From positions 1 through 61,413 of the forward strand of contig CAZWEW010000001.1 of assembly GCA_964633055.1 (NCBI GenBank): a DNA stretch of 61,413 nucleotides. Direction: 5' to 3'. The notes under the pieces were generated by a model that was not told the DNA's origin, ran no database searches, and saw only the letters and a program-made list of their open reading frames with translations. Position numbers and translations under genes: made by a program. Source of the DNA: an uncultured Woeseia sp. Its GTDB lineage: Bacteria > Pseudomonadota > Gammaproteobacteria > Steroidobacterales > Woeseiaceae. Shown here one piece after another: positions 5,325 through 41,860 of the stretch. The stretch's first letter is position 1. The number at the start of each line of letters is the position of its first letter.

Positions 5325-6422
5325 TCAGGCGTTGTAAACTTCGGTGAACACGCTGTCGAAGACTTCGATGTCTTCGAGCTTACCCATGCTGACTCGCATA
5401 AAATTGGCAGGGCCGCCGATGCTGCCGCGAATCAGAACGTTTCGGTCAGCCATTGCCCTCGCAAACTCCTCGCCGTTGCGACCAATGTCTGCATAGACGA
5501 AATTTGTCTGCGACGGCAGTGGCTCGATGCCGTTCCTGTGGAACGTCGCATTTACCATTTCCCGCCCCTTGACGATCATCTCCCTGGAAAACGCGATGAA
5601 TTCATCGTCGAGATAGCTTGCGTAGGCGGTCGCGAGACCAACACTGTTTGGCCAGGCCATGACGTGATCAGTCACAAGTTTCGCGATGTCAGGATGGCCC
5701 ATGCCGTAGCCAACCCGGTAGCCTGCCATGCCGAAGATCTTCGAGAAGGTCCGGATCACCAAGATATTCTCGCCCTCACGAACCAGGTCGACGACGGAGG
5801 TGTAATCGGGATCGTCGGTCACCTCGTTGTACGCCTCGTCAACCAGGACGACCGCTTTGTGACTCACGGCACGGCAGAAAGCGCGGAGTTCATCGCCATC
5901 CAGCGTCAGTCCGGTCGGGTTATTTGGGTTGCAGATATAGACTAGGCTGACCGAATCATCGATGGCGGCAGTTATTGCGTTGAGGTCGATCGACATGTCG
6001 TCGGCAAGCGGGACACGCAGTATGTCGACACCCATCCGTTTCGAATAGGCAACGTGGTCGTTATAGGTCAGGGAGGGCATGACGACTTTGCCGCGTTTGC
6101 CGAAGGCAACCATTGCCGCGTGCAATGCTTCATTCGACCCGGACGACAGGACTAGGCTGTCTGCCGGAAGATCGTTCTTTTTGGCGATGGCATCGAGCAG
6201 CATGGTAGTGATTTCCATCGGGTAGTAAGCGCCGTCCGCTGCAGCCGCGGCGGCCGCTTCCAGTCCTTTTGGGCTCGGGCCATACGGATTCTCATTGAAT
6301 CGAAGCAGCACTTTGCCCGGAATGGATCCGTATTGTGCGAACGTCGTCGGACTCAGTGTGAGAACGGAGGCTCCGCTAACGACATGTCGGATGAAGTCGC
6401 GGCGATTGAATGCGGTAGTCAT
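5325..6422 (-). CDS. Tat-signal PLP aminotransferase, class I/II (histidinol-phosphate aminotransferase-like)
   Basis: 365 aa. The N-terminus MTTAFNRRDFIRHVVSGASVLTLSPTTFAQ carries a twin-arginine motif. It has NPNNPTG and the PLP-lysine motif RTFSKIFGMAGYRVGY. Confidence 0.85.
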   Translation of the reverse strand: MTTAFNRRDFIRHVVSGASVLTLSPTTFAQYGSIPGKVLLRFNENPYGPSPKGLEAAAAAAADGAYYPMEITTMLLDAIAKKNDLPADSLVLSSGSNEALHAAMVAFGKRGKVVMPSLTYNDHVAYSKRMGVDILRVPLADDMSIDLNAITAAIDDSVSLVYICNPNNPTGLTLDGDELRAFCRAVSHKAVVLVDEAYNEVTDDPDYTSVVDLVREGENILVIRTFSKIFGMAGYRVGYGMGHPDIAKLVTDHVMAWPNSVGLATAYASYLDDEFIAFSREMIVKGREMVNATFHRNGIEPLPSQTNFVYADIGRNGEEFARAMADRNVLIRGSIGGPANFMRVSMGKLEDIEVFDSVFTEVYNA

Positions 6423-18562: not shown

Positions 18563-19843
18563 CTAGAGGAATCTCTCCACGCGGAAATCATGGAGCAATT
18601 CCGACGTTCCGTTCCCAAGGATTTCCATCGATGCGAGCAGGCCGACGATGGGCGCAAGCGTGATACCTGAATGCATCGACGCAAGGAATACTCGGGGGTT
18701 ACCAGGCACGTGCCCAATGACGGGTAGGCCATCGAGGGGCAGCGGCCGCCAGCCCACGCCGATACGTCCGACGTCGGTATCATCGAGTGCAGCGACATAC
18801 TTTGCAGCAGTCTCCATAACGCGACGTGCATGCTGGACCGCCAGCTCCGTGTTTGGATAGGCGTTGGGGCGACCGGCGACGTAAGCAAGATGTTGCTCGG
18901 TCTGCGGTGCGCCGGTCTTTTCACCTATGACCACGCGACCGTCCGGTAACTGGTGGAAGTGAGAGTCGCTGGTATAGCAGACTGTGTTCAGAAGTGGACC
19001 TATTGGTTGGGTGGTGACGATGATGCCGGGTGTTGCGGGCACGACAAGATCGGTGCCGAGATCAATCATTCGTCCGATTTCGTTTGCATTTGCGCCCGCC
19101 GCAACGACCACCAGGTCAGACTCAAATTCACCGCCGGTGCTGACGACACGGGCCCGTTCGGAATCAAAGTCGATCGAAGTCACCTCAGCTGGCGCAACAA
19201 GCGTGCCCCCGTTCTCGATGGTGCCGTCGACCAGTGCATGCGTGGTTGCCGCCGGGTCGACAGCGCCATCGGCCCACGACCAGGCAAATTCATCGGTGTC
19301 CGGCGACAGCGCCGGTTCCAGTCGGGATACGGCGGCGGCGTTGATCATTGACACAGATTCATGTTGTGCGGTGAGTCGACGAATGCCGTCACGGATATCC
19401 TGCATTTCACCGTCCGTGTGATACCACTCGAGGCTACCACCCCAGCGGATAGGAAATTCCAGCTCGGTAGATAACAGTCGATACTCTCGCAGTGAATGTT
19501 TGCGCAGCTCGAAGTAGCTTTCGGGCGCGTCGTACCAGGAGGCATTGAGCCACGCGAACGAGTTGCCTGATGCCTGTGTGGCAACTCCTGTCTTATCGAG
19601 TAGTGTGACCTCACAACCTTCACGGGACAGGTAGTAGCCAATAGATGCGCCGACGATACCGGCACCGATAATGGTGACCCGGTGAATATCACCCAAAGCG
19701 CCAAGAGCCCTGCCAGCCACAGTAATGCCGATCGCGCCGCTTGCCTTTAGGAATTCTCGCCGGTCTAGACTGCGTGGTTCCGTTAGCAAGGATAGCGACC
19801 CAAACGCGGGTGAAATAATCGACTTGTGATCACGCTCTTTCAA
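18563..19843 (-). CDS. Tat-signal FAD-dependent oxidoreductase (DAO / D-amino-acid dehydrogenase-like family)
   Basis: 426 aa. It has the twin-arginine motif DRREFLKASGAIGITVAGRALGA and the dinucleotide fold VTIIGAGIVGASIGYYL. The TTG start overlaps the upstream stop (TTGA). Confidence 0.85.
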   Translation of the reverse strand: MKERDHKSIISPAFGSLSLLTEPRSLDRREFLKASGAIGITVAGRALGALGDIHRVTIIGAGIVGASIGYYLSREGCEVTLLDKTGVATQASGNSFAWLNASWYDAPESYFELRKHSLREYRLLSTELEFPIRWGGSLEWYHTDGEMQDIRDGIRRLTAQHESVSMINAAAVSRLEPALSPDTDEFAWSWADGAVDPAATTHALVDGTIENGGTLVAPAEVTSIDFDSERARVVSTGGEFESDLVVVAAGANANEIGRMIDLGTDLVVPATPGIIVTTQPIGPLLNTVCYTSDSHFHQLPDGRVVIGEKTGAPQTEQHLAYVAGRPNAYPNTELAVQHARRVMETAAKYVAALDDTDVGRIGVGWRPLPLDGLPVIGHVPGNPRVFLASMHSGITLAPIVGLLASMEILGNGTSELLHDFRVERFL

Positions 19844-31087: not shown

Positions 31088-31693
31088 ATGACATGGATCG
31101 CGACTATCTCATATGAAGATGCCATGGGGGCATTAAAAAAACTCTACGATCGGATCAAGGGACCGGACGACAACGTCGACAACATCATGCTTGCGCATAG
31201 CCTGCGTCCGCATTCTATGGAAGGGCACATGGCGCTGTACAAGTATGTATTGCACCATCCACGAAACGTATTGCCAAAGTCCTATCTCGAGACGATTGGT
31301 GTCTATGTCAGCCTGCTCAATAAATGTCGTTATTGCGTTGACCACCACTACGCCGGATTGTTGCGTGTCATTGAGGACGATGTGCGTGGGGCGGAGATTC
31401 GGACGGCGTTAGAAGCAGGAAACCTGACGGCGGTGTTTGACGGCAAAGAGCTCGCCGGTCTTGAGTATGCCGGGAAACTCACGACCGACCCGGCGGGGTT
31501 ATCGAGTGCCGACATTGAATCACTGAGGCAGGCGGGTTTAGATGACGGTGAGATTCTTGAGATCAACCAGGTGGCTGCGTACTTTGCCTATGCCAATCGG
31601 ATGGTGCTGGGCCTCGGCGTCAATACCGATGGCGATATCATCGGGTTATCACCGGGAGACAGTAGCGATCCCGATAACTGGTCGCACCAGTAG
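31088..31693 (+). CDS. Carboxymuconolactone decarboxylase / AhpD-like peroxidase-related protein
   Basis: 201 aa. It has the AhpD-type CxxC-H motif (CRYCVDHH), and the C-terminal stretch EINQVAAYFAYANR is typical of the peroxidase-related CMD subfamily. Confidence 0.8.
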   Translation: MTWIATISYEDAMGALKKLYDRIKGPDDNVDNIMLAHSLRPHSMEGHMALYKYVLHHPRNVLPKSYLETIGVYVSLLNKCRYCVDHHYAGLLRVIEDDVRGAEIRTALEAGNLTAVFDGKELAGLEYAGKLTTDPAGLSSADIESLRQAGLDDGEILEINQVAAYFAYANRMVLGLGVNTDGDIIGLSPGDSSDPDNWSHQ

Positions 31694-31737: not shown

Positions 31738-32970
31738 TCAGGCGAGCATCGCCCGGTTCTTTTTGACCGCTGCCACGACCCGGTCAACATGGTCCGCGTT
31801 GTTGTACATGTGCGGAGACATTCTCAGGCCACCCGTCGCAGCGCACTGGACACCGGCGTCGTCGAATACGTTGCTGACGAGTCGGCTGGCATTCTCGCGC
31901 GGGGTCGCGATGATCACGACGCTGCTCGTAAATGCGGGATTTGCGCTGGATACGAAAGCCACGCCAAGGTCTTCTAGGCCGCCACGAAGCCGGTCGGCCA
32001 CGTTTTTGGACTGCGCTTCGATGCCTGCCGGCGTGATCGTCTCATGAAACAGTGCGGTATCGTTGAGCGATGCGAGCGCGGCATCGTCACGCTGGCTCAT
32101 CGCATCGAACTTCCGCGCGCCGTCCGGCACATCTTCTGTGGTCCTGCCCCACGGCACGCTGACAATATTCGGCCAGATATGATCAATGTGGCGCTCACGG
32201 ATATACAGGATTCCGACTTCGCGTGGCCCCATGAACCACTTGTGCGCACTGCCGCTGAAAGAGTCGGCTTCGATCGCTCCGAGATCGAGATCGACGGCGC
32301 CCCAGGTCTGTGCCCCATCGATATGGATGAATACATCGTCCTTCTTCTCGCGGACCGCCGCACAGATCTCTGCAAGCGGTAGCCGGAAACCGGTGATATT
32401 CGAGATATGGGTGAACGACACGACTTTCGTGTTGTCGCCGACGACGTCGACGAACATGTCGACCACCTCATCTACCGAACCCGTGTTCGTTGGTACCGAA
32501 AATCGCCGGACCGTCGCGCCGGTTCTGGCCGCCTGTACATCCCACGCGACGAGATTCGATGGGTGATTCTGATCCCACAGCACGATTTCGTCCCCTTCAT
32601 CGAGCGGCATGCCCTGCACGATCGTGCCATTGGCTTCTGACGCGTTGCGGACGATCGCTATTTCGTCCGCTGACGTGCCCAGCATCCCGGCCACCCGTCC
32701 CCTAGCCTCTTCCTTGAAGGCTTCGACAGCACGCCGGCTGGCAGTGCTGAGCGACTGGTCGAGTTGCCGCGCGTATTCGTTGTGCGCCTCTGTCACCATG
32801 GTGGGCATCGGGCAGAGATTGGCGGCGTTCATTGGCACGCTCTCATCGGCGAAACCAAATGTGGGTGTCGCAGCATCGGCCGTGTGAATGGTGGCAGCAT
32901 AGCTCCCTAGGCTGCCCACAACGGACACCCCGCCCACGACCTTCAAGAAATCACGTCTGGCGATACTCAT
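31738..32970 (-). CDS. Tat-signal PLP enzyme, aminotransferase class V fold (cysteine desulfurase / isopenicillin-N epimerase-like)
   Basis: 410 aa. The N-terminus is MSIARRDFLKVVGGVSVVGSLGSYAATIHTADA (twin-arginine). The PLP-lysine context is SGSAHKWFMGP. Confidence 0.85.
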   Translation of the reverse strand: MSIARRDFLKVVGGVSVVGSLGSYAATIHTADAATPTFGFADESVPMNAANLCPMPTMVTEAHNEYARQLDQSLSTASRRAVEAFKEEARGRVAGMLGTSADEIAIVRNASEANGTIVQGMPLDEGDEIVLWDQNHPSNLVAWDVQAARTGATVRRFSVPTNTGSVDEVVDMFVDVVGDNTKVVSFTHISNITGFRLPLAEICAAVREKKDDVFIHIDGAQTWGAVDLDLGAIEADSFSGSAHKWFMGPREVGILYIRERHIDHIWPNIVSVPWGRTTEDVPDGARKFDAMSQRDDAALASLNDTALFHETITPAGIEAQSKNVADRLRGGLEDLGVAFVSSANPAFTSSVVIIATPRENASRLVSNVFDDAGVQCAATGGLRMSPHMYNNADHVDRVVAAVKKNRAMLA

Positions 32971-33038: not shown

Positions 33039-33719
33039 ATGCGAATATTCGAGCTTCAGCCAGTCACCGTCCCTGTGGCCGGCACAGATGATGAGTTTCC
33101 GGTGAGACGCATCTATTGCATCGGCCGCAACTATGCGAAACACGTTGCCGAGATGGGTTGCGACATCAAACGCTCTAAACCGTTTTTCTTCGGCAAGCCG
33201 GCCGACGCAATCGTCTTGACGGGCGGGACAGTCGATTATCCGTCTCGAACGTCAAACCTGCATCACGAGATCGAGCTTGTGGTGGCGATCGGAAAATCCG
33301 GAAGGGACGTCGCGCTAGAAAATGTTCTGGATCACGTGTACGGCTACGCTGTCGGCATCGACCTGACCCGCCGGGACCTGCAGGCTGAGGCCAAGGAAAA
33401 GGGGCGTCCTTGGGAGCCTGCCAAGGGATTCGACCTGTCGGCGCCGATTTCCCCAATTCACCGGGTCGAGGACGTCGGTCACCCCGTTCAGGGACGTATC
33501 TGGCTCGCGGTAAATGGTGAAATTCGTCAAGATGCCAGTCTAAATGAGCTAATATGGTCGGTAGCAGAATCTGTCGCCGAGCTCTCAACCCTGTTTGAAG
33601 TGGTGCCTGGCGACCTGCTGTACACAGGGACCCCTGCCGGCGTTGGCCCCTTGGAAGTGGGCGACGAGGTGACCGGCGGCATCGAGGGAATTGACGAAAT
33701 ACAAATAACAATTCGGTAG
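33039..33719 (+). CDS. Fumarylacetoacetate hydrolase (FAH) family protein
   Basis: Trimmed to ATG 33039, giving 226 aa. The motifs RIYCIGRNYAKH, HHEIELVVAIG, DLTRRDLQ and GDLLYTGTPAGVG are typical of the FAH family. Confidence 0.85.
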   Translation: MRIFELQPVTVPVAGTDDEFPVRRIYCIGRNYAKHVAEMGCDIKRSKPFFFGKPADAIVLTGGTVDYPSRTSNLHHEIELVVAIGKSGRDVALENVLDHVYGYAVGIDLTRRDLQAEAKEKGRPWEPAKGFDLSAPISPIHRVEDVGHPVQGRIWLAVNGEIRQDASLNELIWSVAESVAELSTLFEVVPGDLLYTGTPAGVGPLEVGDEVTGGIEGIDEIQITIR

Positions 33720-33748: not shown

Positions 33749-34531
33749 ATGGACCGTCGCAAGTTTCTGAACACTGTAAGCGCAACGGCCGCCGCGAGCA
33801 TAGCCGGTGCGACCTCTTTCTCAGCCAAAGCGGATGCCCTCGAAGAGGCGATGGAAGAGGCCCTCGAGCCCAAGCGTCGCGCGAAACCGGGCTTTTGCAC
33901 CATTGGCGAGGAGCGGGAACGCAGCCCCAACGACAATCGTCCGTATTATCAGCACAATGACCCAGCGTTGCCCGAAATGCCGAAAGCACCGACGCTGATG
34001 GACTTTTACAAGCTCCGTTTCTCGACCAATCACGTGACGCAGAGTGCGAGACTTGCCCTCATAAACGGACATAGCGAAAAGGTCGTGATGGCCTGCCTGC
34101 TGCACGATATCGGCCTCAACATCCGGGGCACTGATCATGGCTACTGGTGTGCGCAACTCGTGCGTCCCTATGTTGACGAGGAAGTCGCTTGGGCGATCGA
34201 GAAACACCAAGCGCTGAGGTTCCTGCCTGATCCGGACCAAAACTATGAATATCCCGAAGCCTATATCAGGCTTTTTGGTGCAGATTACGAGCCCGAGCCC
34301 TATATCATGGAAGAGGCTAAAAAGGCGAGGAACCACAAGTGGTACATGTCCTCCCGTCAGATCACCATTAACGACGTCTATGCTTTTGACCCGAACCTGT
34401 CCGTCGACGTCGAGGATTTCACCGACATCATGGCCCGCAATTTCAAACAGCCGAAAGAAGGGCTGGGCTTCGATGACAGCCCGGTTGCACACATGTGGCG
34501 GACCTTTATCTGGCCTACTAACTTCTTATAA
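33749..34531 (+). CDS. Tat-signal HD-domain protein (PhnZ / MIOX-like HD fold suspected)
   Basis: 260 aa with a GAGGAG Shine-Dalgarno. The N-terminus is MDRRKFLNTVSATAAASIAGATSFSAKA (twin-arginine). The pattern is H...HD...H...H: NHVTQSA, CLLHDIG, DHGYW, EKHQALRF. It has only 3 Cys, so no FeS motif. Confidence 0.7.
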   Translation: MDRRKFLNTVSATAAASIAGATSFSAKADALEEAMEEALEPKRRAKPGFCTIGEERERSPNDNRPYYQHNDPALPEMPKAPTLMDFYKLRFSTNHVTQSARLALINGHSEKVVMACLLHDIGLNIRGTDHGYWCAQLVRPYVDEEVAWAIEKHQALRFLPDPDQNYEYPEAYIRLFGADYEPEPYIMEEAKKARNHKWYMSSRQITINDVYAFDPNLSVDVEDFTDIMARNFKQPKEGLGFDDSPVAHMWRTFIWPTNFL

Positions 34532-34540
34532 GAAAACATT

Positions 34541-36958
34541 ATGGCCAATTACATCGGCAGCGATTTTACGCCGCCGGACGTCATCGGCAAGGTGACGGGC
34601 AAGGCACGCTACGCTGAAGACATCCAGGTCGATGGCATGGTCTTCGCGCGACTTCTGACCAGCCCGGTTCCACACGCGCGTATCAAGCGCATGGACTTGT
34701 CGGCTGCCCTCGCTTTGGAAGGTGTTGTTGGCGTGCTCACTGCGGATGACGTCCCCGCCGCACAGGCACCACGTGCGGCAATCCTGACCAACGAACCCGT
34801 CTTTGTTGGTGATCCGATACTCGCTATTGCAGCCGTGGATGACACCGTCGCTACCGATGCGCTGCAGTTGGTAGATATTGAATACGAGCCATTGCCGTTC
34901 AGTGTCGATCCGCTCGAGTCGCTGCACCCGGACGGGTCCAATGCACGCGAGGATGGCAATGTCTACGCACCGCAGGGCTTTGGCGACAGAACGACCAGGC
35001 CCGAGGAAATCAAATGGACGCAGGCCGATCTCGACGCTTTTCTCGATGGTCGTCCGCCCGAGGGCGATATGCCGATCCAGTGGTCCGTTGGCGATATCGA
35101 GGAAGGGTTTGCGAAAGCCTCCTACGTCGTCGAGCAAAATTTCGTAACGGCGGGTTATGCACATCACTCGATGGAACCTCGTTCCTCGATGGCCTACTGG
35201 CAAAATGGCAAATGCTTCCTGCATGGGCCGAATCAGAGCCAGACGGCACCGATGCCTGGTCTTGCCCGAATGATCGGTATTGACGTCGCCGAGCTTGTCT
35301 TCATCAACGAAAATTGTGGCGGCGGTTTCGGTTCGCGCAGTACGCCCTACGAAATGCTCGTATTGCCGGCGTTTTTCTCGCGCAAGATTAACCGGCCCGT
35401 TGCACTCCACCTCGGCAGGGCCGAAGAGTTCTACCTTGGAAAAGCGCGATCCGGTTTCCAGGGCCACGTCAGGATGGGATTTCAGGACGACGGTCGGATC
35501 ACGGTGATGGACCTGTTCATCGTGCAGGATATCGGCTGCCAGACAGGTTTTCCGTCCGCGTCCGCGGCCGCGGGTGCGACGTCGCTTGTCTACCAGCCCG
35601 AGACGATGCGTTTCCGCGCGATCCCGGTAATGACCAACACCACGCCCAAGGGTGCACAACGGGGGCCCGGGCAAAACCAGATTGCGGCCGCGATCGAGCC
35701 TCTCATCGACAAGGCGGCGGTCATGCTTGAGATGGACCGCATCCAGATCAGGATGATCAATGCGCCGGTCAGTGATTCGCTGCATGGTCCGCGGCAACAG
35801 CAGATGACGAGTGCTTACCTGCGTGAAGCGCTCGAACAGGGCGCCGAGCGTTTTCGCTGGGCGGAAAGGACCGAGCGTCGGGGATCAAGAAGCGGATCCA
35901 AAGTCATCGGGCTTGGGGTCGGGCAGGCGTATCATTCAGCGGGACGCGACGGCTATGATGGCCTGTTGCGTATTGCACCGGACGGCAAAATTCATCTGCA
36001 CAGCGGCGTCGGTAATCTCGGTACGTATTCCTACGCGTCGACGACCCGGCCTGCGGCGGATGTTCTGCAGTGCGACTGGAACAATTGCATCATTCATTAC
36101 GGCCGTTCAACCGAACACTTGCCGTGGAGTTCGGCGCAGAACGGCAGCAACACGTCTTTTACGCACACGCGCGCCAACTACGTCGCGGCGGTCGATGCCG
36201 TGCAGAAGATCAGGAACATCGCCGCCATTCAGATGGGCGGAAATGCGGATGACTATGACATCGCAGCTGAGCGCGTTTTCGCGAAAACAGACGCCTCGCG
36301 ATCAATGAGCTACGCTGAAGTCGCTCAGGCTGCAATGGAACTCGGCGGCCGATTCGACGGTAGTGAAGTACCGGACGATATCCACGACGTGACGCGCCTT
36401 GCTGTCGAAGGCCTGCGGGGTACCGGCCTGATTGGTGTCGCAAAGGACAATCTCGGCCGGCGCGGCGCGGTACCTGGCCTTGCAGTCGGGTTTGCAGAAA
36501 TCGAACTTGATCTCGAGACCGGTCGGTACAGAATTCTCGATTATCTCGGCGTCGCCGACTGCGGAACCGTCCTGCATCCGCAGGGTCTGGCAGGGCAGGT
36601 TCGTGGCGGTGCGGTCTGGGGATTCGGCATGGCCGGCCTGGAACGTCATGTCTACGATCCGGTGCTCGGACTACCGGCAAACAGTGGTTTCTACCAGTGC
36701 AAACCGGCGACCTACATGGATCTGCCGGGTGAGATGGATTGGGATGCCGTCGATCTGCCAGATCGCGACAATCCCGTCGGTGTGAAGGGCATCGGCGAGC
36801 CGGTGATGGGTTGTGCTGCTGCTGCCGTGCTGTGCGCAATATCCGATGCGCTCGACGGGCATGTCTTCAATCGCGTGCCGGTCACGCCCGACATGATCGT
36901 CAACCATGTTGCCGGACTGGATCAGTCCACCCCGGCGATGCGAACCAATACCTTCTGA
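34541..36958 (+). CDS. Molybdopterin-binding large subunit, xanthine dehydrogenase / aldehyde oxidase / CO-dehydrogenase family
   Basis: 805 aa. The N-terminus is GKVTGKARYAEDI. It has the GGGFGSRS motif and a C-terminal KGIGEP motif containing the catalytic Glu. It has no signal peptide and starts 9 nt after the HD-protein stop. Confidence 0.9.
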   Translation: MANYIGSDFTPPDVIGKVTGKARYAEDIQVDGMVFARLLTSPVPHARIKRMDLSAALALEGVVGVLTADDVPAAQAPRAAILTNEPVFVGDPILAIAAVDDTVATDALQLVDIEYEPLPFSVDPLESLHPDGSNAREDGNVYAPQGFGDRTTRPEEIKWTQADLDAFLDGRPPEGDMPIQWSVGDIEEGFAKASYVVEQNFVTAGYAHHSMEPRSSMAYWQNGKCFLHGPNQSQTAPMPGLARMIGIDVAELVFINENCGGGFGSRSTPYEMLVLPAFFSRKINRPVALHLGRAEEFYLGKARSGFQGHVRMGFQDDGRITVMDLFIVQDIGCQTGFPSASAAAGATSLVYQPETMRFRAIPVMTNTTPKGAQRGPGQNQIAAAIEPLIDKAAVMLEMDRIQIRMINAPVSDSLHGPRQQQMTSAYLREALEQGAERFRWAERTERRGSRSGSKVIGLGVGQAYHSAGRDGYDGLLRIAPDGKIHLHSGVGNLGTYSYASTTRPAADVLQCDWNNCIIHYGRSTEHLPWSSAQNGSNTSFTHTRANYVAAVDAVQKIRNIAAIQMGGNADDYDIAAERVFAKTDASRSMSYAEVAQAAMELGGRFDGSEVPDDIHDVTRLAVEGLRGTGLIGVAKDNLGRRGAVPGLAVGFAEIELDLETGRYRILDYLGVADCGTVLHPQGLAGQVRGGAVWGFGMAGLERHVYDPVLGLPANSGFYQCKPATYMDLPGEMDWDAVDLPDRDNPVGVKGIGEPVMGCAAAAVLCAISDALDGHVFNRVPVTPDMIVNHVAGLDQSTPAMRTNTF

Positions 36959-37060: not shown

Positions 37061-38011
37061 CTACCTGTCGGTGGCTGATAGCGGCAGTTCCTCTTCGGCA
37101 ATGGTAAGTAATTGCCGGATGATCTCGGGCCGGTTCGGTTGGATATGCATTCCCTCCGTCCAGCGCAGAATCTTCGGCTCGCCGGCGGCTCTGAACAGGG
37201 CTTCGGTTTCTCCGGCCGGTGTGCGCTCGTCTTCGCGCGCACCGATGACGATGACGGGTCTGGGGGCAATGCGCGCGACATTGGTCGCGGTGTTAAAGGT
37301 GGGGCCGTAGGCGAGCCAGTGCAGCAACGTTGCGGCTGGTCCGTGCAGAAGACGGATTTCGTTCCTGCGCGCGACCTGTATCTCCAGCCAAGCCCGGTTG
37401 TCGGCGGCGCCGTGGACGAGCATCGTCACGTCGATTCGGGGATCGCGGGCAGCAACCAGAGCGGCGAACGGCACGCCAAGGCTGGCGCCCACGAGTACCA
37501 GCTGGTCTTGATCTGCCCAGGGTTGTTGCTCGAGCCAGTCCAGGATCAGCGAAACGGCGGGTGGCGTGTCGCGAAATGCCTTTCTGGCCAACGGTACCGT
37601 GGCGATTATCCGTCGCCATCCGTGAACCTTCTCAGCGCCTTCATACGGATAGTCGATTGCGACGACAGCCCGGTCACCGACATTGCCGAATAATTCGACG
37701 GCGTCGCTGCCGGTACGATGACCTCCCAGGATGATCATCACCGGCAATTGGGTCGTCGGCTCGGCTGGTCGTATCAGCCGGAAAAGAACGGAAAGCCCCG
37801 ACGTCGAGGTCGCCGTGGCTAGCCGGGAAAGCTGACCGTTACCGTCAATTATGGCATCGCCACGGACGTTTTCGAGGTCGGCGTGCCGTGCTTTGAAGTA
37901 GTCTTCCAGTGGCATGGCTGAATCGATTATGAGCCAGACAAGCGACACGATAGCCATCGCCACAAGCGGGACGAGTCCATAACAAAGGATGATTCGCAGG
38001 CGTTTTCGCAT
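37061..38011 (-). CDS. Membrane-anchored alpha/beta hydrolase
   Basis: Trimmed to ATG 38011 (MRKRLRIILCYGLVPLVAMAIVSLVWLII, a TM anchor), giving 316 aa. It has the nucleophile elbow GASLG and His/Asp contexts downstream. Confidence 0.65.
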   Translation of the reverse strand: MRKRLRIILCYGLVPLVAMAIVSLVWLIIDSAMPLEDYFKARHADLENVRGDAIIDGNGQLSRLATATSTSGLSVLFRLIRPAEPTTQLPVMIILGGHRTGSDAVELFGNVGDRAVVAIDYPYEGAEKVHGWRRIIATVPLARKAFRDTPPAVSLILDWLEQQPWADQDQLVLVGASLGVPFAALVAARDPRIDVTMLVHGAADNRAWLEIQVARRNEIRLLHGPAATLLHWLAYGPTFNTATNVARIAPRPVIVIGAREDERTPAGETEALFRAAGEPKILRWTEGMHIQPNRPEIIRQLLTIAEEELPLSATDR

Positions 38012-38099
38012 GACTGAAGCCTCTGTTCGCAGGCGTAACAAGTCAACTGCTGACAAGCCGGCGGGGCTGCGCTAAGTTTAGCCGTCTGACTTGTTGCCC

Positions 38100-39863
38100 A
38101 TGAAGAACACTATGTCACAAACCGGAAAAATCACCGTATCGCTACTCCTGCTCCTGTTGGTGGCTTGCTCTCCCGATCCTCAGTCCGTCAGCGCAGTTGG
38201 CGGCGCTGACCTGATCCTGATCAATGGTCGTGTCTATACCCTCAACTGGGACGAGCCGTCTCCGGATGGTACTGCGTCGGACAATGCGCCGATCAACGAC
38301 ACTGGCTGGTATCCGGATGCTGAGGCCGTCGCAACCAAAGGCGACGAGATTATCTTCGTGGGCGGGACGACCGATGCACTCGAATTTCGCGGTGAAGCGA
38401 CGCGCGTGGTCGATCTCGCGGGGGCAACGGTCATACCGGGGCTGGTCGACTCGCATACCCATGTCTACGGCCTGGGTGCGAGGCTCGATTCCATCGACCT
38501 TACCGAGGCCGAAAGCGAAGAAGATGCCGTTGTGCTGGTTGCCGAACGAGTCCGTTCGACGCCGCCTGGCGAATGGGTCATCGGTCGCGGTTGGGACGAG
38601 GGTGCATGGGCGGACCGCTATCCCGACAAGGCACTGCTTAGCCAAGCAGCGCCCGACAACCCGGTCTTCATGGGCAGCCTGCACGGGTTCGCAGCTTGGG
38701 TGAACCAGGCGGCGCTCGACGCCGGTGGTATTACCACCGAGACAGAGGATCCGGCGGGCGCCGAACCGTGACAAGACGACGAAGGAAAACAACGTGCACA
38801 CGCCCTCACGCGAGAAACGACGGTACGCAAGAAAAAACTAGCATCGACGTCACTGAAGACACGGCTGAACCGATGGGTCATCGGACTTCAACAGATGGCC
38901 GAAGACGGTTACGTTGCGGTCCACGAGGCCGGGCTTGGCACTGAAGCCATGGAAGCGCTCGAGCAACTCGAGGCAGAAGGCCGTTTGCCGATTCGGGTAT
39001 ACGGCATGTTGTCTCTGCGGGACGAAGTGCTGATCCGGAAATGGCTTGAGAAAGGGCCCGACACAGACAACGATAGCATGCTGGTCACGCGCGCCGTCAA
39101 AGCTTATTACGATGGCGCACTCGGGTCTCGCGGCGCGCGGATGCTCTATGACTATTCGGACATGCCCGGTCACCGTGGCGTCAGTGGTGACGGCTACGGC
39201 TTTAATCAGGCACTGAATGCCGAGGTCATGAAAGCCGGATTTCAGGTTGCCATTCATGCGATTGGTGATGCTGGCAATCGCGAGTCCTTGGATATCCTGG
39301 AGGCGGTATTCGAAGATCATCCTTCCACGCGCAACAATCGGCATCGCATCGAGCATGCGCAGGTCATACATCCCGATGACATACCCAGACTGGGACAGCT
39401 CGGTATCATCGCTTCGATGGAACCGCCGCACGCAATGGAAGACAAGACCTGGGCCGAGGAACGGGTGGGACCGGAGCGGATAGTCGGGGCTTACGCGTGG
39501 CGCTCGCTTCGTGAGACAGGTGCCGGACTGACGTTTAACTCGGACAACCCAGGCTCGGACCACAATATCTTTTACGGGATGCACTCGGCGATTACGCGAC
39601 AGGACAAGAACCTGCAGCCTGAGGGGGGCTGGTACCCCGAGCAGAAGATGAGTTCGGACGAAGTCGTTCGCGGCTATACGAGTTGGTCCGCGCACGCGAG
39701 TTTTCGGGAGGACGTGACCGGAATCATCGAAACTGGCCGCTGGGCGGATCTGACTGTAATGGATGTCGATCCGTTTGTGCTTGCGGATGAAATCCCGTCC
39801 GATATTCTCAACGGGCGAATACTGATGACCATCGTGGCTGGCCACGTCGTATTCGAGCGATAA
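38100..39863 (+). pseudogene. Lipoprotein amidohydrolase-3 (YtcJ-like) gene interrupted by one in-frame TGA at 38769-38771
   Basis: ATG 38100 opens with MKNTMSQTGKITVSLLLLLLVAC (lipobox), followed by PGLVDSHTHV. The track ORFs 38091..38771 and 38895..39863 are in the same frame. My translation of 38772-38894 in that frame has no further stop. The whole region is colinear with the paralogue at 59848..61383. Confidence 0.75.
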
Positions 39864-39943
39864 GGCACGTTCGTCCGGAGCCCGGCACCGATATCGACTT
39901 GGCGTATACTGTCGCCCGCCCAGGATCACAGAGGCCGGTAGCA

Positions 39944-41860
39944 GTGAAACTGAATAACACGATAAATCGCCGTGATTTCGTCAACGGCTGCGCGCTGAGT
40001 CTTGCCGCGGGGACCTCGCTTTCCCCCCTGGAAGCCATCGCGCAGGACCTTCTCGATCCGGCGGCATTGCCTCCTGACTATTACCCGCCGACACGGCAAG
40101 GTATGCGGGGCAGTCATGACGGTTCATTCGAGGTCGCACATGCAACGCGCGACGGTATCGCCTACAGCTCAGTTGACTCCGGTGATCGTGCCTACGATCT
40201 GGTTGTCGTTGGTGGCGGGCTGAGCGGTCTATCGGCAGCGTATTTCTTCCGCAAGCAGTATGGGCCCGATGCGCGAATTCTCGTGATAGACAATCACGAC
40301 GATTTTGGCGGGCACGCGAAACGCAACGAGTTCTGGCACAACGGCCGGATGCACTTGGTCAATGGTGGCACGCTGAATGTGGAAGCGCCGTCACAATACA
40401 GCACGGTGGCTGCAGGCTTGCTCTGGGAGCTCGGGATCGACCGTCAGCGTTACTTCGCGAAGAACCGCGGCATGTGGTCGAACTATGGCGACATGGGGCT
40501 CAAGGGCAGCATGTTCTACGATCGCGAGACCTTCGGTGAAGACAAACTTGTTGTCGGTTACGGTGATATGCCGATCAGTGAGTTTATCCGGCAGGCGCCT
40601 GTCAGCCTGGAGGTGCAGCTGGATGCCGTTCGGCTGTATGAAGAGCAGAAGGACTATCTTCCGGGGCTGAACGCTGACGAGAAACGGCAGATGCTCACCC
40701 GGATGAGCTATCGCGATTACGTCGTCAACATCGTCGGCTGCCACCCGGACGTGATGCATCTCTTTGACACGACGCAGCTTGGCATTTTTGTCACGGCGAT
40801 GGATGCTATCCCGGCCATCTACTGTCGGGAAATGGGTTATCCCGGCTTCGATGGCATGAATCTCGGTGAGATTTCACCGAACCAGCTTGCTAACGAGCCT
40901 GGTGGACAGCATGGTCGTGAAAATCAGGCGCGCGCCCAAAGTGGCGATCCGGACATGTACTTCCCCGATGGTAACGCGACGATCACGCGCCTCTTGGTCA
41001 GCTCGCTGATTCCTGACGCGGTGTCGGCCAATACGATGGAGGACATCGTTTCGGCGAAAGTCGATTACAGTCTGCTCGACCGAGATGACAACAAGGTTCG
41101 TATCCGGTTGAACAGCACCGTTACCGACGTTTCTCATGTTAGTGATAGCCAGGTCGAGACGACCTATGTACTGGACGGAGACGCCTACACGGTGACGAGC
41201 AATAATGTTGTGCTCGCCTGCTGGAACATGGTGATTCCGCATATCTGCCGGGAGCTACCCCAGGCTCAACGGGGAGCACTGTCCTACGGCCAGAAGTCGC
41301 CGCTCGTCTACACGGGTGTGCTGGTCTCGAACTGGCAGCCCTGGGTCGAAGCCGGCATATCCCGGGTCTCAGCACCGGGCGGATACCATCCGAGTATCGG
41401 TCTGCAACCGATGCTGGAAATGGGCGACTACCGGACGGCCCGGTCGCCCGACGAGCCGATCGTTGTCCGCATGTCGACGTATTTCTACGAGCCGGGACAT
41501 TCACGAAGGGAACAACATCGAATTGGCCGAAACCGTATGCTCATGACGCCTTTCGAGACTTTCGAACACCATATTCGTGACCAGTTGTCCCGAATACTCG
41601 GCCCGACCGGCTTCGATGACGAGCGGGACATACTCGGTATCACCGTCAACCGCTGGCCGCATGGTTATACGTATTCCTACAATCCACTGTTCGACCCGGA
41701 ATCGTGGGCATTCACGACCACGCCCGAGCGGCCCTGCGTGATGGCGCGCCAGCGCTCAGGCCGAATCGCGATTGCGAATTCCGATGCAGCCGCCAGCCCG
41801 CACACGGATGCTGCGATCAACGAGGCTTACAGGGCGGTTACCGAGTTGCTCGATTCCTGA
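39944..41860 (+). CDS. Tat-signal FAD/NAD(P)-binding amine-oxidoreductase (spermidine-dehydrogenase-like)
   Basis: I prefer GTG 39944, with a GAGG Shine-Dalgarno 9 nt upstream, giving MKLNNTINRRDFVNGCALSLAAG (twin-arginine) and 638 aa. It has a YYPPTRQGMRGSHDGSFEVAH stretch and the dinucleotide fold DLVVVGGGLSGLSAAYFF. The track start is TTG 39899. Confidence 0.8.
   Translation: MKLNNTINRRDFVNGCALSLAAGTSLSPLEAIAQDLLDPAALPPDYYPPTRQGMRGSHDGSFEVAHATRDGIAYSSVDSGDRAYDLVVVGGGLSGLSAAYFFRKQYGPDARILVIDNHDDFGGHAKRNEFWHNGRMHLVNGGTLNVEAPSQYSTVAAGLLWELGIDRQRYFAKNRGMWSNYGDMGLKGSMFYDRETFGEDKLVVGYGDMPISEFIRQAPVSLEVQLDAVRLYEEQKDYLPGLNADEKRQMLTRMSYRDYVVNIVGCHPDVMHLFDTTQLGIFVTAMDAIPAIYCREMGYPGFDGMNLGEISPNQLANEPGGQHGRENQARAQSGDPDMYFPDGNATITRLLVSSLIPDAVSANTMEDIVSAKVDYSLLDRDDNKVRIRLNSTVTDVSHVSDSQVETTYVLDGDAYTVTSNNVVLACWNMVIPHICRELPQAQRGALSYGQKSPLVYTGVLVSNWQPWVEAGISRVSAPGGYHPSIGLQPMLEMGDYRTARSPDEPIVVRMSTYFYEPGHSRREQHRIGRNRMLMTPFETFEHHIRDQLSRILGPTGFDDERDILGITVNRWPHGYTYSYNPLFDPESWAFTTTPERPCVMARQRSGRIAIANSDAAASPHTDAAINEAYRAVTELLDS

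What the first reader, a model, noticed from the sequence alone, without database searches (positions are those of the whole stretch)
33749..36958. Tat-signal HD-domain protein paired with an orphan molybdopterin (XDH-family) large subunit, with no FeS or FAD partner genes
Seen in the sequence:
- A 260-aa ORF has a textbook twin-arginine leader (MDRRKFLN...SFSAKA) and an H / HD / H / H ligand pattern (NHVTQSA, LLHDIG, DHGYW, EKHQALRF). This is reminiscent of PhnZ/MIOX-type HD-domain metalloenzymes.
- It ends 9 nt before an 805-aa XDH/aldehyde-oxidase-family Mo subunit (GGGFG, KGIGEP) that has no export signal of its own.

Established knowledge: characterised members (XdhABC, CoxSML, PaoABC, IorAB) pass electrons from Mo to a 2x[2Fe-2S] subunit or domain. 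In periplasmic PaoABC the Tat signal sits on the FeS subunit and the others are co-exported.

I found no ORF in any frame of this window with the Cys patterns of such a subunit, and no FAD subunit.

Inference: either the HD protein is a non-canonical partner and Tat carrier for the Mo subunit (a periplasmic two-component Mo enzyme of a new composition), or the redox partners are encoded elsewhere. The c-type cytochromes at 11-12 kb are conceivable electron acceptors but are not linked.
Basis: partly seen in the sequence, partly recalled or inferred. Interest (0 to 1): 0.7.

Follow-up and report, generated by a model that had tools for sequence, protein, structure and literature searches.

The report
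Exported HD enzyme beside orphan molybdoenzyme subunit
A marine sediment bacterium has a gene for an exported PhnZ-like metal enzyme directly upstream of a molybdenum enzyme subunit that has lost its usual iron-sulfur and flavin partner genes, but comparison with relatives indicates that the two are operon neighbours in one narrow lineage, not a new two-part enzyme.

Summary
A 260-aa Tat-leader HD-domain ORF (33749-34531) ends 9 nt before an 805-aa XDH/aldehyde-oxidase-family Mo subunit (34541-36958). The 61-kb window has no FeS or FAD subunit gene.

The proposed 'new two-component enzyme' is not favoured, for these reasons:
- The HD protein belongs to a large family of about 260-aa Tat-exported proteins with a PhnZ/TmpB-like fold. 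Most of these are standalone genes; only about 6 of 68 readable loci have the Mo gene downstream.
- The Mo protein is a PaoC-type catalytic subunit. Its roughly 60%-identical relatives lie in canonical operons: Tat-[2Fe-2S], Mo, FAD, often cytochrome b.
- The Mo gene is a clean presence/absence insertion downstream of an aminotransferase-V / FAA-hydrolase / HD module.
- One Woeseia MAG has the orphan Mo gene with no HD gene, and six independent orphan Mo genes have no HD gene.
- The orphan is under strong purifying selection, and its pattern of conserved sites matches that of canonical subunits.

Most likely it still uses FeS/FAD subunits encoded elsewhere. I could not test this. Within the orphan clade itself, HD lies directly upstream in 12 of 13 sampled loci, so an HD escort role is unlikely (about 0.1) but not excluded.

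The parts
33749..34531 (+). HD-domain protein, 260 aa; member of a large uncharacterised family of Tat-exported proteins with a PhnZ/TmpB-like fold and a putative dinuclear metal site
   Evidence: Pfam HD 25.2 bits. More than 7,700 homologs, all about 260 aa. AF2 model pLDDT 79. Foldseek top hits are TmpB 6NPA and PhnZ 4MLM/4N6W, probability 1.0. Conserved H95, H119, D120, D129-H130, H153, H196, D209, H248.
33749..33832 (+). Twin-arginine signal peptide (MDRRKFLNTVSATAAASIAGATSFSAKA); R3 and R4 are invariant in the family
   Evidence: Read directly from the sequence. M1, R3, R4 and the following K27-A-D-x-L-E motif are invariant in 43 homologs and retained in members down to about 45% identity.
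34532..34540 (+). 9-nt intergenic spacer (gaaaacatt); no obvious Shine-Dalgarno sequence; no terminator between the genes
   Evidence: HD-to-Mo gaps in relatives are 8-200 nt, against a median of about 1 nt for FeS-to-Mo junctions in canonical operons.
34541..36958 (+). Orphan PaoC-type molybdopterin (XDH/aldehyde oxidoreductase family) catalytic subunit, 805 aa, with no signal peptide
   Evidence: Pfam Ald_Xan_dh_C (aa 19-119), MoCoBD_1 (180-408), MoCoBD_2 (434-729). Best PDB matches are 7dqx_A, 1rm6_A, 5y6q_C and PaoC 5g5g_C at E 1e-40 to 1e-47. It keeps 167 of 173 family-invariant columns. dN 0.09-0.16 with saturated dS.
33039..33719 (+). FAA-hydrolase-family acylpyruvase (fumarylpyruvate hydrolase/FAHD1-like), 226 aa; first gene of the FAAH-HD-(Mo) unit
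   Evidence: Pfam FAA_hydrolase 3e-52. PDB 4maq 4e-80. Immediately upstream of HD in 13 loci.
31738..32970 (-). Tat-leader class-V PLP enzyme (SufS/C-DES/PvdN-like), divergently transcribed; the most persistent neighbour of the module
   Evidence: Pfam Aminotran_5. NCBIfam SufS subfamily and PvdN, both below cut-off. Leader MSIARRDFLKV. Conserved next to FAAH/HD, or next to Mo in L006.
31088..31693 (+). AhpD/CMD-family peroxidase-related protein; a recurrent neighbour of the module
   Evidence: Pfam CMD. TIGR01926 89 bits, above cut-off. Present in 8 module loci.
37061..38056 (-). Alpha/beta hydrolase, convergent to the Mo gene; marks the downstream edge of the unit
   Evidence: Weak Pfam Peptidase_S9/DLH matches. 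Homologs lie downstream of HD or Mo in L095, L096, L099 and L170.
39899..41860 (+). Tat-leader NAD_binding_8 (amine-oxidase-like) flavoprotein; directly downstream of the orphan Mo gene in L006
   Evidence: Pfam. Leader NRRDFV. L006 homolog is 76% identical and lies 133 nt after Mo. Also present in L172.

Best explanation
These are two adjacent, probably co-transcribed genes in a gene cluster typical of Woeseiaceae-like marine gammaproteobacteria. They are not two halves of one enzyme. Gene 1 encodes a self-sufficient, Tat-exported HD-domain enzyme with the H-HD-H-H-D dinuclear ligand set and a PhnZ/TmpB-like fold. It is most likely a periplasmic diiron oxygenase-type enzyme, loaded with metal in the cytoplasm and therefore exported folded; its substrate is unknown. 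Gene 2 is the catalytic Mo (molybdopterin cytosine dinucleotide-type) subunit of a PaoABC-like periplasmic oxidoreductase. In this lineage the gene became separated from its Tat-[2Fe-2S] and FAD subunit genes and was inserted downstream of HD, inside an older aminotransferase-V / FAA-hydrolase / HD module. The subunit is intact and under selection. It most likely still assembles with PaoA/PaoB-type FeS and FAD subunits encoded elsewhere in the genome, acting as an alternative catalytic subunit, and the FeS subunit would also supply its Tat escort. Any link to HD is at pathway level (same operon, a cluster rich in Tat-exported cofactor enzymes), not physical. Shown: the family assignments, the gene-context statistics, the purifying selection and the unchanged constraint pattern. 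Inferred: the diiron/oxygenase chemistry, the partners acting in trans and the periplasmic location of the Mo subunit.
For: Mo ancestry: relatives at about 60% identity sit in operons of Tat-FeS, Mo, FAD, cytochrome b and a small ORF. Of 80 species-level loci, 71 have a FeS homolog on the contig and 67 an FAD homolog, almost always flanking Mo. At least 58 of 77 FeS subunits show an RR leader. In the NJ tree the window clade is sister to such a canonical clade.

HD autonomy: there are more than 7,700 homologs of about 260 aa and no fusions; the longest relative is 370 aa. HD stands alone in L003 and L004. Among 68 loci with readable downstream sequence, only L090-L093 and L122 have the adjacent Mo gene, with L097 as a further case at a contig end. 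In the HD tree most of the family is standalone, the A-F-H module is one clade, and the Mo-linked loci are a sub-clade within it. There is no universal neighbour.

Mo as an accessory insertion: module loci without Mo (L094, L095, L096, L099, L121) have the same convergent CBS gene directly after HD that follows Mo in L001, L002 and L171.

Mo without HD: L006 (Woeseia sp., 79% identity) has aminotransferase-V(-), Mo and the Tat-flavoprotein, with no HD or FAA-hydrolase gene. Six independent orphans (L010, L043, L045, L047, L051, L060) have no HD gene and unrelated contexts.

The Mo subunit is functional and unremodelled: dN is 0.09-0.16 with saturated dS, giving omega of about 0.05 or less. It keeps 167 of 173 invariant columns. 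It shows only 7 fixed substitutions, one 5-aa insertion and 6 relaxed sites. In a symmetric three-clade test the orphan clade lost constraint at 12-20 sites, against 10-12 and 14-28 for two canonical clades of equal depth.

Other points: FeS-to-Mo junctions are tight (median about 1 nt, n = 72) whereas HD-to-Mo gaps are 8-200 nt. Gene histories disagree: L122 has Mo 81% and FAAH 77% but HD 64% identity to the window, whereas L002 has 78%, 67% and 74%. Woeseiaceae-type genomes carry complete paralogous operons that could lend FeS/FAD subunits (L032 and L173-175). HD fold and ligands: with the motif definition from PMC8177086. The PaoABC hitchhiker precedent is in PMC4273604.
Against: No FeS or FAD gene was found for any orphan: none in the 61-kb window, and none within 6-10 kb in 13 orphan-clade loci. 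The attempt to find one on the same assemblies failed. The one Woeseiaceae-type FeS gene examined has its own Mo gene, so use of partners in trans is inference only. From the Mo side the association with HD is strong: 12 of 13 sampled orphan-clade loci have HD directly upstream on the same strand, usually 8-33 nt away. HD also occupies exactly the slot that the Tat-FeS gene holds in canonical operons. The clade is shallow (at least 69% identity), so this could be inheritance, but it is equally what an escort relationship would produce. The conservation tests use sites conserved across the family and may not be sensitive to subunit-interface residues.
Confidence: 0.55

Rival explanations
1. The Tat-HD protein has replaced the Tat-FeS subunit as the physical partner of the Mo subunit. 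It escorts the Mo subunit to the periplasm by hitchhiking and possibly exchanges electrons with it, for example by Mo-dependent re-reduction of an over-oxidised diiron site, or by oxidation of an aldehyde that HD produces.
For: HD occupies the exact upstream slot of the Tat-FeS gene. The Mo subunit has no signal but descends from a hitchhiking family. HD is directly upstream in 12 of 13 orphan-clade loci spanning 69-99% Mo identity, including the basal L170 and L171. The gaps are short and there is no intervening terminator. The Mo gene is under strong selection although no FeS gene is visible.
Against: L006 keeps an intact orphan Mo gene with no HD gene. Six independent orphans have no HD gene. 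About 90% of HD loci lack the Mo gene, and close sisters differ in having it (L093 versus L094, L122 versus L121). There is no excess relaxation or new constraint on the Mo protein, as would be expected after swapping two partner subunits for an unrelated one. HD and Mo gene histories are incongruent. No fusions exist anywhere. Mixed-valent HD oxygenases need no external reductant (PMC8177086).
Confidence: 0.1
2. The orphan Mo subunit works without any FeS or FAD subunit. It could be a stand-alone, probably cytoplasmic, molybdoenzyme that passes electrons directly to O2 or a small acceptor. Alternatively it could work with another neighbour, such as the Tat-leader NAD_binding_8 flavoprotein.
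For: Orphan genes recur in at least five lineages in unrelated contexts, with no FeS or FAD gene within 10 kb. In L006 the Tat-flavoprotein lies 133 nt downstream of Mo, and it is also in the window, L091 and L172.
Against: No characterised XO-family enzyme lacks the 2x[2Fe-2S] module (my own knowledge of the family). The constraint pattern is indistinguishable from that of heterotrimer subunits. The flavoprotein is absent near Mo in L001, L002, L170 and L171.
Confidence: 0.15
3. The Mo gene is a decaying remnant of a broken operon, and its position next to HD has no functional meaning.
For: It has lost its operon partners. The gene is present or absent among close relatives. A neighbouring Amidohydro_3 gene in the window is split.
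Against: The ORF is a full-length 804-805 aa in about 20 clusters at 69-99% identity. dN is far below dS. It keeps 167 of 173 invariant sites, including GGGFG and the GEP catalytic motif.
Confidence: 0.03

Closest known systems
PaoABC periplasmic aldehyde oxidoreductase of E. coli (PaoC Mo subunit; PDB 5G5G/5G5H)
   Same: The Mo subunit has the same three-domain XO-family architecture. In its canonical relatives the operon logic is the same: a Tat signal only on the 2x[2Fe-2S] subunit, with signal-less Mo and FAD subunits. The ternary hitchhiker export mechanism is documented in PMC4273604.
   Different: Only distantly related to PaoC: E 6e-41, and NCBIfam PaoC scores 219 bits against a cut-off of 1180. 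Gene order in relatives is FeS-Mo-FAD, and many add a Ni_hydr_CYTB cytochrome b. In the window the FeS and FAD genes are absent altogether.
Other heterotrimeric XO-family enzymes: Kdh (7DQX), 4-hydroxybenzoyl-CoA reductase (1RM6), Methylobacillus aldehyde oxidase (5Y6Q), quinoline oxidoreductase (1T3Q)
   Same: These are the best sequence matches in the PDB (E 1e-39 to 1e-47), with full-length alignment of the Mo-binding domains.
   Different: None reaches an equivalog threshold. All are encoded with their FeS and FAD subunits. The substrate cannot be inferred from them.
[quoted passage not shown]
   Same: They are the only significant structural matches to the HD model. H95 aligns to PhnZ residue 34 and H119/D120 to residues 58/59. 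A six-residue H..HD..H..H..D set is conserved with near-identical spacing for four of the five intervals (motif from PMC8177086).
   Different: About 20% identity; NCBIfam PhnZ scores 26 bits against a cut-off of 214.6. The window protein has a Tat leader and an extra N-terminal region of about 65 aa plus a C-terminal region of about 50 aa. It has no YxxE substrate loop. It has no PhnY/TmpA-type partner gene nearby. The dinuclear phosphatase YqeK has the same ligand count, so oxygenase chemistry is not established.
PvdN (Tat-exported periplasmic PLP enzyme of pyoverdine tailoring)
   Same: The divergent neighbour at 31738-32970 is a class-V fold PLP enzyme with a Tat leader and matches the PvdN model and structures. 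This shows the cluster encodes several Tat-exported cofactor enzymes.
   Different: It scores far below the PvdN cut-off (95 against 650 bits). It is about equally similar to SufS and C-DES lyases.

Membership tests
Xanthine oxidase / aldehyde oxidoreductase family, Mo (large) subunit | Domain architecture: a/b hammerhead plus two molybdopterin-cofactor-binding domains | tested here: met
   Pfam PF01315, PF02738 and PF20256 all score far above their gathering thresholds.
Xanthine oxidase / aldehyde oxidoreductase family, Mo (large) subunit | Cofactor and catalytic motifs: GGGFG and the C-terminal G-E-P motif holding the catalytic Glu (equivalent to bovine XDH E1261, from my own knowledge) | tested here: met
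   GGGFG at 260-264 is 100% conserved and G-x-G-E-P at 750-754 is 99% conserved in 113 family members.
Xanthine oxidase / aldehyde oxidoreductase family, holoenzyme | A 2x[2Fe-2S] subunit or domain encoded with the Mo subunit | tested here: not met
   None in the 61-kb window and none within 6-10 kb in 13 orphan-clade loci. Presence elsewhere in the genome could not be tested.
Xanthine oxidase / aldehyde oxidoreductase family, holoenzyme | An FAD subunit (FAD_binding_5 / CO_deh_flav_C) encoded with the Mo subunit | tested here: not met
   tblastn with the L007 FAD subunit finds nothing in the window or in orphan loci, but finds it in 67 of 80 related loci.
PaoABC-type periplasmic aldehyde oxidoreductase | PaoC equivalog-level sequence similarity | tested here: not met
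   NF041671 PaoC scores 218.8 bits against a cut-off of 1180.
PaoABC-type periplasmic aldehyde oxidoreductase | Tat signal on the FeS subunit only, with signal-less Mo and FAD subunits co-exported | tested here: inconclusive
   Met in the sister and wider canonical clades. In the window there is no FeS subunit to test, and export itself cannot be tested with these tools.
HD-domain superfamily | Match to the HD profile, including the HD dyad | tested here: met
   PF01966 scores 25.2 bits against a cut-off of 22, which is marginal. D120 is invariant and H119 nearly invariant in 43 homologs.
[quoted passage not shown] | H..HD..H..H..D ligand motif (PMC8177086) | tested here: met
   H95, H119, D120, H130, H153 and D209 are conserved. 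The first three align to PhnZ residues 34, 58 and 59. The last three are assigned by spacing and fold only. The dinuclear phosphatase YqeK has the same motif count.
[quoted passage not shown] | Fold closest to PhnZ/TmpB and not to HD hydrolases | tested here: met
   Foldseek ranks 1-10 are TmpB and PhnZ (E 6e-4 to 6e-3, probability 1.0, TM-score normalised by target 0.51-0.60). The next hits have E above 0.6.
[quoted passage not shown] | YxxE substrate-gating loop of PhnZ/TmpB; equivalog-level similarity | tested here: not met
   The region before H95 is D-F-[YF]-x-L-R-F, with no YxxE. TIGR03276 scores 26 bits against 214.6, and the TmpB model 19.5 against 300.
[quoted passage not shown] | Fe(II)/Fe(III) cofactor and O2-dependent C-C or C-P bond cleavage | not testable with these tools
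   Requires metal analysis, EPR/Mossbauer spectroscopy and activity assays.
Tat (twin-arginine) substrates | N-terminal S/T-R-R-x-F-L-K-type motif, hydrophobic region and A-x-A cleavage site | tested here: met
   The leader is MDRRKFL, then a hydrophobic stretch rich in A, S and T, then SAKA. The RR pair is invariant across the family. Export itself was not tested.
Tat hitchhiker pair (signal-bearing escort plus signal-less passenger) | Obligate co-occurrence of escort and passenger genes | tested here: not met
   HD occurs without Mo in about 90% of loci. Mo occurs without HD in L006 and in six other orphans.
Tat hitchhiker pair (signal-bearing escort plus signal-less passenger) | A physical complex formed before export | not testable with these tools

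The most novel reading that the evidence does not exclude
In this Woeseiaceae-like lineage the Tat-exported HD diiron protein has taken over the role of the lost Tat-[2Fe-2S] subunit as export escort, and possibly redox partner, of a PaoC-type Mo subunit. That would give a periplasmic Mo/diiron enzyme with a composition never described for the xanthine oxidase family. The evidence does not exclude this: HD is directly upstream in 12 of 13 sampled members of the orphan clade, and no alternative escort has been located.
Probability: 0.1. Interest if true: 0.8.

Novelty: new variant of a known kind. Interest (0 to 1): 0.4.

Why it matters
If the conservative reading holds, three things are still worth knowing.

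1. There is a very large, unannotated family of Tat-exported proteins with a PhnZ/TmpB-like HD fold, found in marine and soil metagenomes. All characterised HD-domain oxygenases lack a signal peptide, so this points to periplasmic HD-type oxidative or hydrolytic chemistry on an unknown substrate.

2. PaoC-type Mo subunits recur as selected, intact orphan genes in several lineages. Either electron-transfer modules are shared between alternative catalytic subunits, or there is an unknown way of re-oxidising the Mo centre.

3. The canonical relatives define a PaoABC-like enzyme with a membrane cytochrome b that appears to be uncharacterised.

If the novel reading were true, it would break the rule that XO-family Mo centres always hand their electrons to 2x[2Fe-2S] clusters, and it would add a new kind of Tat hitchhiker pair.

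Tried and rejected
1. Aminophosphonate pathway idea (aminotransferase-V as PhnW plus HD as PhnZ). Rejected: the aminotransferase is SufS/C-DES/PvdN-like and matches PhnW only at E 5e-4, and HD lacks the YxxE loop.

2. Finding trans FeS/FAD genes on the orphan-bearing assemblies. I searched with a Woeseiaceae FeS subunit and looked for contig-length fingerprints (4003940, 424196, 201052, 120848). None appeared in the top 120 hits, so this is inconclusive.

3. Looking for a reciprocal 'orphan FeS/FAD' pair. P0419 turned out to sit in an ordinary canonical operon.

4. Genome-contig scan with the Mo protein.

5. Heterodimer prediction. MAFFT misplaced the HD homologs in two of the three block alignments (A3 and A5).

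6. One careless Pfam call on raw coordinates failed.

7. Literature searches for orphan XDH-family large subunits and for Woeseia Mo enzymes found nothing relevant.

8. Pseudogene hypothesis for the Mo gene. Rejected by dN/dS and motif retention.

Full report
OBSERVATION

A 260-aa ORF lies at 33749-34531 and an 805-aa ORF at 34541-36958. Both are on the + strand and in the same frame, separated by TAA plus 9 nt.

The first ORF starts MDRRKFLNTVSATAAASIAGATSFSAKA and contains the quoted His/Asp strings. It passes the Pfam HD threshold only narrowly (25.2 bits against 22). Its best NCBIfam matches are the PhnZ and TmpB models, far below their cut-offs and covering only the N-terminal third.

The second ORF carries Ald_Xan_dh_C, MoCoBD_1 and MoCoBD_2 with strong scores. 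It matches all XO-family equivalog models well below their cut-offs. Its best solved relatives are the Kdh, 4-hydroxybenzoyl-CoA reductase, Methylobacillus aldehyde oxidase and PaoC large subunits, at E 1e-40 to 1e-47.

I called genes over the whole window and found no FeS or FAD subunit. A six-frame scan for the Cys motifs gave three hits, all in short spurious frames. tblastn with genuine FeS, FAD and cytochrome b subunits from related operons found nothing in the window.

WHERE THE MO SUBUNIT COMES FROM

A homolog search gave a tight clade at 69-99% identity and a very large tier at about 60%. The tight clade includes proteins that NCBI labels Woeseia sp. or Woeseiaceae.

Three look-ups in the 60% tier all showed the same operon: Fer2/Fer2_2 subunit, Mo, FAD_binding_5/CO_deh_flav_C, Ni_hydr_CYTB cytochrome b and a roughly 120-aa ORF. 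The FeS subunits carry twin-arginine leaders, for example LSRRRFIKSVIASSAAGA and LDRRRFIKGVIASG. These are therefore PaoABC-like periplasmic enzymes. In PaoABC the FeS subunit escorts the signal-less Mo and FAD subunits through the Tat system (PMC4273604).

A scan of species-representative genomes returned 80 loci at 47-61% identity. Of these, 71 have a FeS homolog on the contig and 67 an FAD homolog, almost always flanking Mo, and many also have the cytochrome b. At least 58 of 77 FeS subunits showed an RR motif in a crude check.

Six loci are orphans with no FeS or FAD gene within 10 kb: L010, L043, L045, L047, L051 and L060. None has an HD gene and their contexts are unrelated.

In a neighbour-joining tree the window's clade is monophyletic and sister to a canonical clade (L007, L008, L009). 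The other orphans arise independently.

WHAT THE HD PROTEIN IS

It has more than 7,700 homologs, essentially all about 260 aa and annotated as hypothetical or 'HD domain-containing'. An exhaustive HMMER search found 103 clusters at 50% identity with E of 1e-30 or better. None is longer than 370 aa, so there are no HD-Mo fusions.

The family conserves several features:
- the Tat leader, with an invariant RR pair;
- a K-A-D-x-L-E-x-x-M motif immediately after the leader;
- H95, H119-D120, D129-H130, H153, H196, D209 and H248.

An AlphaFold2 model (pLDDT 79) has only TmpB (6NPA) and PhnZ (4MLM, 4N6W, 4N71) as significant structural matches. MIOX appears at rank 19. A profile search aligns H95 to PhnZ residue 34 and H119/D120 to residues 58/59.

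The review PMC8177086 states that MIOX, PhnZ and TmpB bind diiron through H..HD..H..H..D. It also notes that the dinuclear phosphatase YqeK has two extra His residues, and that PhnZ and TmpB have a YxxE loop. The window family has the six-ligand pattern but no YxxE loop.

I conclude that it is a Tat-exported dinuclear HD enzyme of the PhnZ/TmpB structural type. It is probably, but not demonstrably, an oxygenase. Its substrate is unlikely to be an aminophosphonate.

IS THE PAIR CONSERVED?

From the HD side, no. HD stands alone in a Pseudomonadales MAG and in another long contig.

In 80 metagenome loci at 50-90% identity, 68 have at least 300 nt of downstream sequence. Only L090-L093 and L122 have the related Mo gene adjacent, with L097 as a further case at a contig end.

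The HD tree shows three nested levels:
- most of the family is standalone;
- one clade carries the module aminotransferase-V(-) / FAA hydrolase / HD;
- within that clade, one sub-clade also has the Mo gene.

Module loci without Mo (L094, L095, L096, L099, L121) have, directly after HD, the same convergent CBS-domain gene that follows Mo in L001, L002 and L171. The Mo gene is therefore a clean presence/absence insertion. A neighbour survey found no universal partner for HD.

From the Mo side the answer differs. In the orphan clade HD is directly upstream in the window, L001/L002, L090-L093, L097, L122, L170, L171 and L172, which is 12 of 13 sampled loci spanning 69-99% identity. L171 has two tandem HD paralogs. 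Only L006 (Woeseia sp., 79%) lacks it; there the aminotransferase-V gene abuts Mo and a Tat-leader flavoprotein follows 133 nt downstream.

IS THE ORPHAN FUNCTIONAL, AND HAS ITS SURFACE CHANGED?

dN is 0.09-0.16 while dS is saturated, so omega is at most about 0.03-0.05. The window protein keeps 167 of the 173 columns that are at least 95% conserved in 77 canonical subunits. GGGFG is 100% conserved and the G-x-G-E-P core 99% conserved across 113 family members.

Against 84 canonical sequences the orphan clade shows 7 fixed substitutions, one 5-residue insertion at 145-149 and 6 relaxed columns.

I ran a symmetric test with three clades of equal depth (mean identity 0.78-0.79). The number of sites conserved in two clades but variable in the third was 12-20 for the orphan clade, 10-12 for the canonical sister clade and 14-28 for a Gemmatimonadota clade. 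The counts of fixed differences were similar across the three.

So there is no sign that two partner interfaces were lost or that a new one was gained.

Three further points bear on the question:
- FeS-to-Mo junctions are overlapping or nearly so (median about 1 nt, n = 72), whereas HD-to-Mo gaps are 8-200 nt.
- Gene histories disagree. L122's Mo and FAA hydrolase are closer to the window's than L002's are, but its HD is more distant.
- No terminator and no above-chance promoter separates FAAH, HD and Mo, so co-transcription is likely.

INTERPRETATION

The best-supported account has four parts.

1. An older module encodes a Tat-exported PvdN/SufS-like PLP enzyme, an acylpyruvase of the fumarylpyruvate hydrolase/FAHD1 type and the Tat-exported HD enzyme.
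2. In one Woeseiaceae-like sub-lineage this module acquired a PaoC-type Mo gene that had been separated from its FeS and FAD genes.
3. HD works on its own.
4. The Mo subunit is a selected, normal-looking heterotrimer subunit. It most likely borrows PaoA/PaoB-type partners, and with them a Tat escort, from a paralogous operon. Such operons exist in Woeseiaceae-type genomes (L032 and L173-175).

The last step is inference. I could not find the partners. The fingerprint search was negative, and the one FeS gene I examined has its own Mo gene.

It is not excluded, because of the 12-of-13 association and the matching position in the operon. I put it at about 0.1.

NOVELTY AND SCORE

Both proteins are already in public databases under generic names. 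I found no literature on either feature.

The finding is best described as new variants of known kinds: a Tat-exported branch of the PhnZ/TmpB-like HD enzymes, and an orphan PaoC-type subunit. It is not a categorically new enzyme. I score interest at 0.4. The pair itself is probably ordinary operon neighbourhood. The HD family and the unsolved question of the orphan's partners are both real and testable.

Noticed in passing
L007:7399-12528, L008, L009, L020, L023, L032, L034, L173-L175: The canonical relatives form a conserved operon: Tat-[2Fe-2S] subunit, Mo subunit, FAD subunit, Ni_hydr_CYTB-type membrane cytochrome b and a roughly 120-aa ORF. This is a PaoABC-like periplasmic oxidoreductase apparently wired to a cytochrome b. 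It is widespread in Gammaproteobacteria, Alphaproteobacteria, Gemmatimonadota and Latescibacterota, and I found no description of it.
   Followed up: partly
window 38091-38771 and 38895-39863: An Amidohydro_3 gene is split into two ORFs of 226 and 322 aa. It is a single gene of 584-607 aa in L001, L002, L170 and L172. This is a frameshift, a pseudogene or an assembly error.
   Followed up: no
window 31738-32970 (-), 33749-34531 (+), 39899-41860 (+): Three cofactor enzymes in one 10-kb cluster carry twin-arginine leaders: a PvdN/SufS-like PLP enzyme, the HD protein and an NAD_binding_8 amine-oxidase-like flavoprotein. This suggests a periplasmic pathway built from enzymes that are exported already folded. 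Two more Tat-like leaders lie at 5325-6422 (-) and 18563-19843 (-).
   Followed up: partly
L171:729-2325: Two tandem Tat-HD paralogs, 67% identical to each other, lie upstream of the orphan Mo gene. The Mo-proximal copy is the window's ortholog (71%). The distal copy resembles the standalone type.
   Followed up: partly
L010:10001-13714: An independently derived orphan Mo gene in a Gammaproteobacteria MAG has a FAA-hydrolase homolog (57% identical to the window's) about 0.6 kb downstream. This hints at a recurrent functional link between FAA hydrolase and Mo that does not involve HD.
   Followed up: no
window 33827-33853 (HD residues 27-35), 33896-33898 (C50) and 34094-34096 (C116): The HD family has an invariant K-A-D-x-L-E-x-x-M motif at the predicted signal-peptidase site, and two invariant cysteines (C50, C116). 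Their roles are unknown. The conservation at the cleavage site is unusual for a signal peptide c-region.
   Followed up: no
L006:8001-12476: In the Woeseia sp. MAG the orphan Mo gene is followed 133 nt later by the Tat-leader NAD_binding_8 flavoprotein, with no HD or FAA-hydrolase gene. The same flavoprotein lies 3 kb downstream in the window and is also present in L172 and L091.
   Followed up: partly
   Followed up: yes
L001:8820-11239: In the 4.0-Mb ENA contig the Mo gene and several neighbours (Na_H_antiporter, MatE, CMD) are each split into 2-3 ORFs, whereas the near-identical Logan contig L002 has them intact. These are probably long-read assembly frameshifts, not pseudogenes.
   Followed up: partly
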